DNA of 64,000 nt from Escherichia coli (GTDB lineage Bacteria; Pseudomonadota; Gammaproteobacteria; Enterobacterales; Enterobacteriaceae), in assembly GCF_029227855.1 (NCBI RefSeq), contig NZ_CP074356.1; one strand, 5' to 3'. Each line of letters opens with the position of its first letter. The stretch's first letter is position 1. A program made the position numbers and the translations under genes. Below the pieces are notes generated by a model. That model saw only the letters and a program-made list of their open reading frames with translations, was not told where the DNA came from and made no database searches. Positions 19,621 through 22,288 of the stretch are shown piece after piece.

Positions 19621-20001
19621 TTTTGAGATATTCCTTAAAAATACCCACTTAATCAATCACAAAACAAATATATAAACAAGCAATCATCAGATTAGCTTAT
19701 GTTTAATGAAATTATTTTATAATTCAATAAGTTACACAAAGTCTCTGTATTTAAATTATTGCCATAATACACCTGACGCGAATTGCACAGGTTCACACAA
19801 TCTATTTAACGCTTGCAGAATACCCCTCTTTACGATCGATAAAAAGTCCTTTTCTTATTTATTTTGAAGCGTAGAATGCGGGGTGATGAAGGAGTGGTGA
19901 TTTTATTTTCACCGCCATTATGGCGGCATTGCCGATATTTTTTTGCGGTACAAATATGCCGTGTTCATGGCCTGTACGAGATAACATGACGGATCACTTT
20001 T

Positions 20002-20502
20002 ATGAGCAAAAAATTTGAAGGCAGCGTCGCGCCTCGCGAGCGTATTAATATATCGTATGTCCCAAAAACAGATGGCCAGACGGCTGAAGTTGAACTTCCG
20101 CTTAACATGCTCGTTGTCGGCGATACCGGAAATACGCAGGAAACATCCCCACTGGATGAACGTCAGGCAGTTTCCGTTAACAAGCACAATTTCGGTGCAG
20201 TGATGGCTGAAGCAGCCATTGGCCTCAATTTTACTGTCCCCGCCACGCTGAAGGGAAGCACAACAGACGATGAACTGAATGTGGCGCTGAATATCAAATC
20301 ACTGGATGATTTTTCACCAGATAGCGTGGCCCGGCAGGTTCCGGAAGTGAATAAATTGCTGGAACTGCGTGAAGCACTGACTGCACTGAAGGGGCCGATG
20401 GGTAACCTTCCGGCATTCCGTACCCAGCTCCAGGCATTGCTGGAAAATGAAGAGTCCCGCGAGCAGTTGCTCAAAGAAATCGGCCAGGTGAGCAATAAAT
20501 AA
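20002..20502 (+). CDS. tssB: T6SS contractile sheath small subunit TssB (VipA)
   Basis: 166 aa MSKKFEGSVAPRERINISYV... Confidence 0.95.
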   Translation: MSKKFEGSVAPRERINISYVPKTDGQTAEVELPLNMLVVGDTGNTQETSPLDERQAVSVNKHNFGAVMAEAAIGLNFTVPATLKGSTTDDELNVALNIKSLDDFSPDSVARQVPEVNKLLELREALTALKGPMGNLPAFRTQLQALLENEESREQLLKEIGQVSNK

Positions 20503-20537
20503 CCACCACTATTTCATTAAACAGGGGTTATCCAGGC

Positions 20538-20762
20538 ATGACGGCACACAAAAATATCTCCGGGACATACCACCTCTCTGTTGCAGACATTCTGCAGGTG
20601 GTTTACCAGGTATGTTTCAGCCCGTCCGTTGAAATCAACCAGGATGGTGTGGCTGCGCTGATTACAACACTGGATCGCCGTATCAGTGATCTATTGGATG
20701 AGATTATCCATTTTTGTGAGTTTCAGCAGAGCGCGTCGCACTGGCAGCGCGTACTTCACTGA
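20538..20762 (+). pseudogene. relic of a tssC 5' segment
   Basis: 74-aa ORF; its C-terminal half (LDRRISDLLDEIIHFCEFQQSASHWQ) parallels TssC residues about 70-100 (IDERISRQMDVIIHAPAFQQVESFWR). Confidence 0.5.
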
Positions 20763-20812
20763 TGGCGAAAAGCCGGTTTCAGAAACACAGCTAAAACAGA
20801 AGGATTTTCAGT

Positions 20813-22288
20813 ATGTCTTTACAGGAAGAGGAACTCGTTTCCAGTCATGCCGGGCAGCCTGAGCAGGCATCGTCGCTGCTTGATCAAATCATGGCACAGA
20901 CCCGTATTCAGCCCGGTTCGGAAGGTTATGACGTTGCCCGCCAGGGTGTGACAGCCTTTATTGCCAGCATCCTGCAATCCACTGCATCTGCCGAACCGGT
21001 CAATAAACTGGCCGTGGACAGCATGATTGCAGATATTGATGAACGCATCAGCCGCCAGATGGATGTCATCATCCATGCGCCTGCCTTTCAGCAGGTCGAG
21101 TCGTTCTGGCGCTCACTGAAAACCATGGTGGATCGCGTTGATTTCCGTGAAAACATCAAGGTCAACGTGCTTCATGTCACCAAGCAGGAACTTCTGGAAG
21201 ACTTTGAGTTTGCGCCAGAAATTATTCAGTCCGGATTTTATAAGCACGTTTATTCGTCCGGTTTCGGACAGTTTGGCGGTGAACCCATCGCTGCCGTGCT
21301 GGGCGCTTATGAGTTCAAAAATACCGCGCCTGACATGAAACTGCTGCAATACGTCAGTGCCGTGGGCGCAATGGCGCACGCACCGTTCCTGTCCTCCGTT
21401 TCCCCGGAGTTTATGGGGCTGAACTCGTGGACCGAACTGCCTAATATCAAAGATCTTTATGCCATCTTTGAAGGTCCGGCCTACACCAAATGGCGCGCCC
21501 TGCGAGACTCGGAAGATTCGCGCTATTTAGGGCTTACGGCACCCCGCTTCCTGCTTCGCCAGCCTTATTCACCAACAGATAACCCTATTAAGAACTTTAA
21601 CTATCACGAAGATGTCAGCCGGAACCACGAAGATTATCTGTGGGGTAATACGGCCTGGATGCTGGCGTGCAATGTCGCAGACAGTTTTGCCAAATACCGC
21701 TGGTGTCCAAATATCATCGGTCCGCAAAGCGGCGGCGCAGTGAAAGATCTGCCGGTGCATCTGTTCGAAACGATGGGTCAGATTCAGGCCAAAATCCCAA
21801 CCGAGGTGCTGGTCACCGATCGCCGCGAATTTGAACTGGCTGAAGAGGGTTTTATCACCCTTACCATGCGTAAAGACTCTGATAATGCAGCCTTTTTCTC
21901 TGCAAACTCTGTACAAAAACCGAAGCACTTTCCGGGCAAAGACGCAGAAACCAACTATAAGTTGGGTACGCAGCTTCCTTATCTCTTCATCATCAATCGG
22001 TTAGCGCACTACATCAAGGTGTTGCAGCGTGAACAACTGGGGTCATGGAAAGAAAGGAGCGACTTAGAGAGGGAGCTTAATACCTGGATCCGTCAGTATG
22101 TTGCCGACCAGGAAAACCCGCCTGCGGACGTGCGCAGCCGCAAGCCTCTGCGTGCTGCCAGAGTTGAGGTTATGGATGTGGAAGGCGAACCCGGCTGGTA
22201 CCAGGTCGCGCTGAGCGTGCGGCCCCATTTTAAATTTATGGGGGCAAACTTTGAGCTTTCCCTGGTTGGCCGGTTAGACAGGGAGTAA
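20813..22288 (+). CDS. tssC: T6SS contractile sheath large subunit TssC (VipB)
   Basis: 491 aa with characteristic TssC sequence throughout. Confidence 0.95.
   Translation: MSLQEEELVSSHAGQPEQASSLLDQIMAQTRIQPGSEGYDVARQGVTAFIASILQSTASAEPVNKLAVDSMIADIDERISRQMDVIIHAPAFQQVESFWRSLKTMVDRVDFRENIKVNVLHVTKQELLEDFEFAPEIIQSGFYKHVYSSGFGQFGGEPIAAVLGAYEFKNTAPDMKLLQYVSAVGAMAHAPFLSSVSPEFMGLNSWTELPNIKDLYAIFEGPAYTKWRALRDSEDSRYLGLTAPRFLLRQPYSPTDNPIKNFNYHEDVSRNHEDYLWGNTAWMLACNVADSFAKYRWCPNIIGPQSGGAVKDLPVHLFETMGQIQAKIPTEVLVTDRREFELAEEGFITLTMRKDSDNAAFFSANSVQKPKHFPGKDAETNYKLGTQLPYLFIINRLAHYIKVLQREQLGSWKERSDLERELNTWIRQYVADQENPPADVRSRKPLRAARVEVMDVEGEPGWYQVALSVRPHFKFMGANFELSLVGRLDRE

What the first reader, a model, noticed from the sequence alone, without database searches (positions are those of the whole stretch)
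20503..20812. Relic of a tssC 5' segment wedged between tssB and tssC
The tssB-tssC spacer is about 310 bp, not the usual few tens of bp, and holds a 74-aa ORF whose C-terminal half is clearly homologous to TssC residues about 70-100 while its N-terminal half is unrelated. This suggests a past partial duplication or recombination at the sheath genes; if translated, the fragment could mimic the TssB-binding region of TssC.
Basis: seen in the sequence. Interest (0 to 1): 0.4.

Follow-up and report, generated by a model that had tools for sequence, protein, structure and literature searches.

The report
Decaying mini-gene copied from tssC
Between the two sheath genes of an E. coli type VI secretion cluster lies a 74-codon gene copied long ago from the start of the large sheath gene; selection once preserved its protein, but it now drifts and is broken in several relatives.

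Summary
The window is an E. coli chromosome carrying the T6SS-2 cluster. The tssB–tssC spacer is 310 nt (20503–20812), against roughly −57 to +67 nt in almost all other clusters sampled. It holds a 74-codon ORF (20538–20762).

ORF residues 28–72 are homologous to TssC residues 58–102 (hhalign E = 1.4e-12). That segment contains the TssC helix that bundles with the TssB C-terminal helix.

The insert is not private to E. coli. It occurs in one clade of closely related clusters: Escherichia, Citrobacter, Atlantibacter, Yokenella and some Salmonella. The next relatives, Rahnella and Buttiauxella, lack it. It most resembles its own clade's TssC, so an in-situ partial duplication is the likeliest origin.

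Present-day evolution is neutral. dN/dS is about 0.8–1, against 0.04–0.13 for tssB and tssC. The ORF is broken in 3 of 10 lineages and shortened by an early stop in a fourth, and 39 complete E. coli genomes carry a nonsense allele.

The deep branches between sublineages instead show frame-specific purifying selection (ω 0.13–0.43, p about 1e-7).

Best reading: an old TssC-fragment micro-protein, once selected and now decaying. Only the last 45 nt, the tssC leader, remains constrained. Interest is modest.

The parts
20002..20502 (+). tssB (sheath small subunit), upstream neighbour
   Evidence: ORF. Pfam T6SS_VipA at 1.1e-51. RefSeq annotates it as tssB.
20503..20812 (+). 310-nt tssB-tssC spacer, about 290 nt longer than in the sister clusters
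   Evidence: Sequence. Gap survey of about 60 clusters.
20524..20527 (+). G-rich, Shine-Dalgarno-like run 10 nt upstream of the small ORF's ATG. An equivalent GGG[GA] or GAGGGG run is present in all three sublineages.
   Evidence: Alignment A5. Reading it as a ribosome-binding site is inference. The window has one more G than most E. coli.
20538..20762 (+). 74-codon small ORF (RefSeq WP_000123970.1, 'hypothetical protein'), a TssC-fragment paralogue
   Evidence: Recent dN/dS is 0.9-1.8. Branch model gives ω_deep 0.13 and ω_shallow 0.81.
20538..20618 (+). Codons 1-27, with no demonstrable similarity to TssC. Possibly a decayed tssC N-terminus.
   Evidence: hhalign E = 0.48. Weak hints. ω_deep 0.33, p = 0.044.
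20619..20753 (+). Codons 28-72, homologous to TssC residues 58-102
   Evidence: hhalign E = 1.4e-12. For codons 28-74, ω_deep is 0.065 with p = 2.9e-7.
20646..20708 (+). Codons about 37-57, the equivalent of the TssC domain-3 helix that packs against the TssB C-terminal helix
   Evidence: Mapping comes plus PMC5807055. Residue numbering of chain 5n8n_B is assumed to start at residue 38. AF2 predicts one long helix over residues 35-73.
20768..20812 (+). Conserved native tssC leader, with AAGGA (20800-20804) 8 nt before the ATG
   Evidence: p-distance is 0-0.19, against 0.10-0.44 for the rest of the spacer. The AGAAGGATTTT motif is shared with the Buttiauxella leader, which follows directly after tssB. 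The AAGGA/CsrA motif is noted in PMC13141884.
20813..22288 (+). tssC (sheath large subunit), the parent gene
20984..21118 (+). tssC codons 58-102, the segment paralogous to the small ORF's C-terminal part
   Evidence: On the same tree ω is 0.10 (deep) and 0.09 (shallow).

Best explanation
In the common ancestor of one clade of enterobacterial T6SS-2-type clusters, a piece of about 300-350 nt covering the 5' part of tssC was duplicated. It landed between the tssB stop codon and the native tssC leader, most likely by tandem duplication of the leader plus about 105 codons.

The upstream copy kept a start codon and a G-rich ribosome-binding-like site. It was translated into a small protein of about 70 aa, predicted to be helical. 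Its C-terminal two thirds correspond to the TssC helix that packs against the TssB C-terminal helix in sheath domain 3, plus the residues that follow it.

For a substantial part of the time during which the three sublineages diverged, this protein was kept by purifying selection. Inferred reason: it bound TssB, or another partner of that TssC helix, as a chaperone or modulator of sheath assembly.

That constraint has since been lost in every extant sublineage. The ORF now evolves neutrally, carries nonsense, frameshift or start-loss alleles in many strains and species, and in the window is best described as a still-open, decaying pseudogene. Only the last 45 nt of the spacer, the tssC translation-initiation region, remain under constraint.

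Shown: homology, distribution, present neutrality, past constraint. Inferred: the tandem-duplication mechanism, translation, and TssB binding.
For: Homology.

Clade-restricted insert. A spacer of 286-316 nt is present in Escherichia, C. youngae, Atlantibacter, Yokenella, the C. freundii complex and some Salmonella enterica. Rahnella, Buttiauxella, Lonsdalea and others have 24-42 nt.

Own-clade origin. The fragment profile scores best on carriers' own TssC. In an exhaustive search of 1.84 billion representatives, the best TssC hits were the E. coli T6SS-2 type. The clade-specific RIS and IIH residues are shared.

Single origin. Position, boundaries and derived residues are the same in all three sublineages.

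Present neutrality:
- Pairwise dN/dS is 0.91-1.77, against 0.04-0.13 in tssB and tssC.
- Substitution rates are equal at codon positions 1, 2 and 3 within sublineages.
- ω_shallow is 0.81 and not different from 1.
- The spacer diverges at roughly the rate of four-fold degenerate sites.
- The ORF is broken in the E. albertii type strain, C. youngae and Yokenella, and shortened in L079.
- Many frameshifted E. coli variants exist.
- The W69 to stop allele is found in 39 complete genomes.

Past constraint:
- ω_deep is 0.13, with LRT 27.8 and p = 1.3e-7.
- Shifted reading frames give ω_deep 1.8-2.0.
- In 40 parametric-bootstrap replicates under ω_deep = 1, the maximum LRT was 6.35 and the minimum ω_deep 0.48.
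- The signal is concentrated in the TssC-like half, ω 0.065.
- With deep branches clocked to full-length tssC, ω_deep is 0.43 with p = 4e-8.
- The tssC control gives about 0.1 on both branch classes.
- The ATG and the G-run are conserved in 9 of 10 sequences.

Structural plausibility. The TssC1 S66-M86 helix, the TssB1 D117-L133 helix and the TssC1 E39-E54 helix form a three-helix bundle (PMC5807055). The N-terminal 212 aa of TssC suffice for TssB binding (PMC3840085). AF2 gives two helices with pLDDT 78.5.
Against: - No direct evidence that the ORF is or was translated. T6SS-2 is silent in laboratory EHEC (PMC13141884).
- Loss of constraint must have happened at least twice, probably three times, in parallel. 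That is unparsimonious.
- Per-branch ω estimates are individually weak (p = 0.05, 0.022 and 0.82).
- Synonymous sites on the deep branches are near saturation, so ω_deep is imprecise (0.13 free, 0.28-0.63 clocked).
- The selection analysis used my own GY94-type code on only 10 sequences and 74 codons.
- The tandem-duplication junction cannot be shown. The two 'leaders' are not significantly similar (p = 0.2-0.5), and the N-terminal 27 aa cannot be placed on TssC.
- TssB binding is untested.
Confidence: 0.6

Rival explanations
1. Pure junk relic. The duplicated tssC fragment was never functional, the ORF is open by chance, and the spacer persists only because deletions reaching tssB or the tssC leader are deleterious.
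For: Recent dN/dS is about 1 and codon-position rates are equal. The ORF is broken in several lineages. The spacer diverges at a near-neutral rate. Indels of 6-27 nt are tolerated.
Against: There is frame-specific purifying selection on the deep branches. The ORF stayed open along all three deep branches, and the ATG and G-run are conserved. The residues retained in all three sublineages are largely those conserved across the TssC family.
Confidence: 0.2
2. The ORF is still a functional small T6SS accessory protein in E. coli, a TssC-helix mimic that binds TssB or ClpV. The apparent neutrality would then reflect rapid or diversifying evolution.
For: The ORF is intact in the large majority of about 2,250 complete E. 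coli genomes that carry it and is annotated as a CDS. The start codon and SD-like run are conserved. A confident helical prediction was obtained. It was under selection in the past.
Against: ω_shallow is 0.81-0.91, against about 0.06-0.13 for tssB and tssC on the same branches. A nonsense allele removing the conserved Trp occurs in 39 complete genomes. The E. albertii type strain lacks the ATG and carries stops. Numerous frameshifted variants exist. Intactness within E. coli is expected by chance at this low divergence (my estimate, about 50%).
Confidence: 0.12
3. The spacer is primarily a cis-regulatory module for tssC, either an internal promoter or a long 5' leader for CsrA or sRNA control that uncouples tssC from tssB. 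The ORF would be incidental.
For: A 2022 study, as cited in PMC13141884, reported tssB and tssC as separate operons. CsrA was reported to repress tssC but not tssB, and an AAGGA motif sits 8 nt before the tssC ATG. The last 45 nt are strongly conserved.
Against: No σ70-like promoter or intrinsic terminator is found in 20503-20812. There is no Rfam match. The consensus structure is weak at -11 kcal/mol with essentially no covariation, and the single-sequence fold z-score is only -2.0. The conserved leader is the same one that follows tssB directly in outgroups, so it predates the insert. PMC13141884 itself finds a single polycistronic tssB operon. RNA-level constraint would not give a frame-specific dN/dS signal.
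Confidence: 0.08

Closest known systems
TssC/VipB N-terminal region (start of Pfam PF05943; the domain-3 helix of the T6SS sheath)
   Same: Clear sequence homology of ORF aa 28-72 to TssC aa 58-102. Family-conserved residues N, D, D, R, D, I, H, Q, W and R are retained. The segment is predicted to form a long helix.
   Different: Only about 45 of about 490 residues are represented. The match is below the Pfam gathering score, 17.3 against 27 bits. It lacks the β-sheet core and the gpW/gp25-like C-terminal domain, so it cannot be a sheath subunit.
Gene-fragment pseudogenes left by partial tandem duplication in bacterial operons
   Same: A truncated copy lies next to its intact parent. It now evolves neutrally, with stops, frameshifts and indels in various lineages.
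   Different: It shows a long period of frame-specific purifying selection after its origin. It has also persisted across five genera rather than being deleted quickly.
TagJ/HsiE1, a T6SS accessory protein that binds TssB (PMC4239648, seen; details of its binding are from my own knowledge)
   Same: Proposed mode of action only: a small accessory protein that contacts a helix of the sheath small subunit.
   Different: No sequence relationship was tested or is expected. TagJ binds the TssB N-terminus and occurs in another T6SS class. Binding by the present ORF is purely inferred.
Eukaryotic 'microProteins': small proteins derived from an interaction domain of a larger protein that titrate its partners (own knowledge, not tested)
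   Same: Same evolutionary logic: a fragment of an interaction surface expressed on its own next to the full-length parent.
   Different: A concept from plants and animals. No evidence here of titration or regulation, and the bacterial ORF is now decaying.

Membership tests
TssC/VipB (PF05943 + PF18945) | Match to Pfam VipB at or above the gathering score | tested here: not met
   17.3 bits against a cut-off of 27, covering aa 40-71 and profile positions 2-33.
TssC/VipB (PF05943 + PF18945) | Statistically supported homology to TssC sequence | tested here: met
   BLASTP E = 3e-8. hhalign E = 1.4e-12. Hits to solved VipB/TssC chains at E = 3e-6.
TssC/VipB (PF05943 + PF18945) | Full-length sheath subunit of about 490 aa with the VipB core and the VipB_2 C-terminal domain | tested here: not met
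   The ORF is 74 aa and only TssC 58-102 is represented.
Pseudogene or relic of a partial duplication | Derived from a neighbouring parent gene, and best match is the parent lineage | tested here: met
   Own-clade TssC scores 42.5-45.4 bits, against 38.5-40.6 for the sister group and less for others.
Pseudogene or relic of a partial duplication | No protein-level constraint at present (ω about 1, equal codon-position rates, disrupting alleles) | tested here: met
   (ω_shallow 0.81, p = 0.24 against 1).
Pseudogene or relic of a partial duplication | Neutral evolution ever since its origin | tested here: not met
   ω_deep is 0.13 free and 0.43 clocked, both significantly below 1. The signal is frame-specific and bootstrap-calibrated.
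Functional small-protein gene | ORF intact in all carriers | tested here: not met
   Broken in L019 (no ATG, stops), L004 (stop) and L006 (frameshift plus stop), and shortened in L079. A nonsense allele is present in 39 E. coli genomes.
Functional small-protein gene | Start codon and ribosome-binding-like element conserved | tested here: met
   The ATG and an upstream G-run are present in 9 of 10 aligned spacers. Function of the G-run is inferred.
Functional small-protein gene | Evidence of translation (Ribo-seq or peptides) | not testable with these tools
   No expression data are available. T6SS-2 is silent in vitro in EHEC (PMC13141884).
Cis-regulatory RNA or promoter element | Promoter or terminator consensus, Rfam family, or a conserved structure with covariation | tested here: not met
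   No sites in 20503-20812. No Rfam hit. Consensus structure is -11 kcal/mol with a covariation term of -0.65.

The most novel reading that the evidence does not exclude
The small ORF is, or in some carriers still is, a true T6SS accessory micro-protein. It would be a stand-alone copy of the TssC domain-3 helix, or helices, that forms a three-helix bundle with the TssB C-terminal helix. In that role it could chaperone free TssB or throttle sheath polymerisation or ClpV recycling. This would make it a bacterial example of a 'microProtein' born from a fragment of its own target's partner. Its loss in several lineages would then be part of the ongoing degeneration of T6SS-2.
Probability: 0.15. 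Interest if true: 0.55.

Novelty: new variant of a known kind. Interest (0 to 1): 0.35.

Why it matters
T6SS-2 is present in about 42% of complete E. coli genomes and is the least understood of the three E. coli T6SS families. Three points follow.

First, the 'hypothetical protein' that annotation pipelines call between tssB and tssC now has an origin and a status: a TssC-derived fragment that is no longer under protein-level selection.

Second, the unusually long tssB–tssC junction may explain conflicting published claims about whether tssB and tssC are co-transcribed, and why tssC but not tssB responds to CsrA. Experiments on T6SS-2 regulation should treat the 45-nt leader and the 265-nt insert separately.

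Third, the evidence that a fragment of a sheath subunit was kept by selection for a long period points to a testable idea: isolated domain-3 helices can interact with TssB in vivo. That could be used as a tool to inhibit sheath assembly.

The finding does not change the general picture of T6SS.

Tried and rejected
- **Nucleotide alignment of the spacer to tssC.** Only a marginal 51-nt match, score 27 against a shuffle maximum of 26. It is not usable for dating or for defining junctions.
- **Test for a duplicated leader.** The 35 nt after tssB were compared with the last 60 nt of the spacer in three sublineages. Not significant, p = 0.2-0.5.
- **Placing the N-terminal 27 aa on TssC.** hhalign gives E = 0.48. 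Smith-Waterman with shuffles gives p = 0.025-0.05 in two sublineages and nothing in Escherichia, with two incompatible registers possible (TssC 1-30 or about 35-57). Left unresolved.
- **Promoter and terminator scan.** Nothing in the spacer.
- **Rfam at permissive E-value.** Nothing.
- **RNA folding.** z = -2.0, and no conserved or covarying structure.
- **Foldseek of the AF2 model against the PDB.** Only generic helical hairpins, E of 3 or more.
- **The partial hit H30 (strain PI6).** It looked like a second home for the ORF's 5' end. It is simply a T6SS cluster with a large internal deletion.
- **Gene conversion from tssC as a source of the low deep ω.** Considered and rejected. The fragments share derived residues with each other rather than with their own tssC, and they would still have had to decay neutrally afterwards.
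- **An antisense ORF as the source of constraint.** Rejected. There is no minus-strand ORF of 30 aa or more in the spacer.
- **Literature searches.** No paper on the small ORF was found. The 2022 paper on tssB/tssC operon structure is not held.

Full report
**What is there**

The window matches E. coli chromosomes at 99-100% identity. The region lies in the T6SS cluster between yafV and ykfM/yafT. [quoted passage not shown]

tssB ends at 20502 and tssC starts at 20813, so the spacer is 310 nt. It contains a 74-codon ORF at 20538-20762. RefSeq annotates this ORF as 'hypothetical protein' WP_000123970.1, including in O157:H7. About 2,250 of 5,426 complete E. coli genomes carry the spacer, once per genome.

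**Is the resemblance to TssC real?**

Yes.
- BLASTP aligns ORF aa 15-70 with TssC aa 50-100 at 36% identity, E = 3e-8.
- A profile of 11 ORF homologues aligns aa 28-72 with TssC aa 58-102 at E = 1.4e-12.
- The same kind of profile finds solved VipB/TssC chains at E = 3e-6.
- Pfam VipB is hit below threshold, 17.3 bits against 27.
- Nucleotide similarity is only marginal, so the copy is old.
- The first 27 residues cannot be placed on TssC with significance.

**Distribution**

A scan of one genome per species returned 68 tssC loci. In nearly all of these the tssB-tssC gap is about -57 to +67 nt.

A spacer of 286-316 nt homologous to the window's occurs only in the closest relatives, whose TssC is at least 87% identical. 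It falls into three sublineages:
- Escherichia (E. coli, E. albertii, E. marmotae);
- Citrobacter youngae, Atlantibacter and Yokenella;
- the Citrobacter freundii complex and some Salmonella enterica.

An exhaustive profile search of 1.84 billion representative proteins found no further groups. The sister clusters in Rahnella and Buttiauxella (TssC about 78% identical) have a 24-nt gap. Their leader (AGAAGGATTTT...ATG) is the same sequence as the last ~20 nt of the window's spacer. The insert therefore sits between the tssB stop and the native tssC leader, and arose once on the stem of this clade.

**Origin**

The fragment profile scores best on the TssC of the clusters that carry it: 42.5-45.4 bits. 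The sister group scores 38.5-40.6, and the other lineages sampled score about 36-38 or less. The fragment also shares the clade-specific RIS and IIH residues. In the global search, the best full TssC hits were again the E. coli T6SS-2 type.

This favours an in-situ partial duplication over import from another T6SS. The duplication junctions are no longer recognisable.

**Present state: neutral decay**

- Within Escherichia the ORF has dN/dS of 0.91-1.77, while tssB and tssC in the same comparisons have 0.04-0.13.
- Within each sublineage, codon positions 1, 2 and 3 change at equal rates.
- The insert diverges at about the rate of four-fold degenerate sites in the flanking genes. The last 45 nt are far more conserved.
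- The ORF has lost its ATG and gained stops in the E. albertii type strain. It has a stop in C. youngae and a frameshift plus stop in Yokenella. It is shortened in L079 and read-through in C. freundii.
- Many frameshifted E. coli variants exist.
- A W69 to TGA allele is present in 39 complete E. coli genomes.

**Past state: selected**

Between sublineages, third codon positions are clearly more diverged (0.51-0.66) than first and second positions (0.30-0.45).

I fitted a GY94-type branch model of my own on 10 sequences.
- It gives ω_deep = 0.13 and ω_shallow = 0.81.
- ω_deep = 1 is rejected (LRT 27.8, p = 1.3e-7). ω_shallow = 1 is not rejected (p = 0.24).
- Shifted reading frames give ω_deep of 1.8-2.0.
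- Forty parametric-bootstrap replicates under ω_deep = 1 never exceeded LRT 6.35 or fell below ω 0.48.
- The signal sits mainly in the TssC-like half: ω 0.065, p = 2.9e-7.
- tssC itself gives about 0.1 on both branch classes with the same code.

Synonymous sites on the deep branches are near saturation. I therefore also fixed the deep branch lengths to those of full-length tssC. This gives ω_deep = 0.43 (p = 4e-8), or 0.28-0.63 if those lengths are scaled 1.5-fold or 0.7-fold. Individual deep branches cannot be resolved.

The ATG and an upstream G-run are conserved in 9 of 10 spacers. The simplest reading is that the ORF was translated and its product was under purifying selection for a good part of the clade's history. 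Constraint was then lost in each sublineage.

**What could the product have done?**

In the P. aeruginosa sheath structure, three helices form the outer domain-3 bundle: TssC1 S66-M86, TssB1 D117-L133 and TssC1 E39-E54 (PMC5807055). That TssB helix is the one required for TssB-TssC binding, and the N-terminal part of TssC suffices for the interaction (PMC3840085).

By alignment, the TssC1 S66-M86 helix corresponds to window TssC residues ~67-87 and ORF residues ~37-57. This assumes chain 5n8n_B starts at residue 38. AlphaFold2 predicts helices at residues 15-26 and 35-73 with mean pLDDT 78.5.

A free copy of this helix could plausibly bind the TssB helix. That is inference only. Fold search was uninformative.

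**Regulatory alternatives**

No promoter, terminator, Rfam family or conserved RNA structure was found in the insert.

The literature disagrees on whether tssB and tssC form one operon, and reports CsrA repression of tssC (PMC13141884). The AAGGA motif cited there lies in the conserved leader, which predates the insert.

**Verdict**

The added results are these:
- the insert is ancient and restricted to one clade;
- it probably came from the cluster's own tssC;
- it was once a selected small ORF;
- it is now a decaying one.

No paper describing it was found. Interest is modest.

Noticed in passing
L002:12010-12271 (E. coli strain PI6); also hit H70 (strain PI24): Degenerate T6SS-2 clusters with large internal deletions. 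In PI6 the first 29 codons of the small ORF abut a 3' remnant of tagH, so tssB (on the left) and tssC through most of tagH (on the right) are missing. tssK is also truncated.
   Followed up: partly
L082:1010-1709 and beyond (E. coli O157:H7 strain OK1): In O157:H7 the annotated tssC CDS is 1392 nt, against 1476 nt in the window. This fits the published CAG to TAG nonsense mutation in vipB/Z0262 (PMC12981562). T6SS-2 is degenerating in that lineage.
   Followed up: partly
window 20524-20527: The window has a run of four G where most E. coli have three, giving a 310-nt rather than 309-nt spacer. The run lies in the SD-like region upstream of the small ORF.
   Followed up: no
protein P0033 (7 contigs) and P0045 (third sublineage): Deletion chimeras. 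P0033 joins small-ORF codons 1-26 in frame to the last ~74 residues of TssC. P0045 joins a TssB fragment to the small ORF. This shows recurrent deletions around the sheath genes.
   Followed up: no
window 20531-20535 pairing with 20802-20806 (alignment A5 columns 30-38 and 330-338): RNAalifold pairs the invariant UAUCC just upstream of the small ORF's ATG with the GGAU of the tssC Shine-Dalgarno, 270 nt away. The pairing is 6 bp, invariant and without covariation, so it may be chance.
   Followed up: no
window 19921-19944: A terminator-like hairpin followed by a T-run lies about 60 nt upstream of the tssB start, inside the hcp-tssB divergent promoter region.
   Followed up: no
L036 (Candidatus Eisenbacteria MAG), about 2794-3000: This is the only other cluster in the survey with an enlarged tssB-tssC gap, about 151 nt. 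Its content was not examined.
   Followed up: no
L001:9902-16461 (equivalent to the window upstream of vgrG): ISAs1-family transposase pseudogenes and an Rhs core protein with a small downstream ORF flank the vgrG side of the cluster.
   Followed up: no
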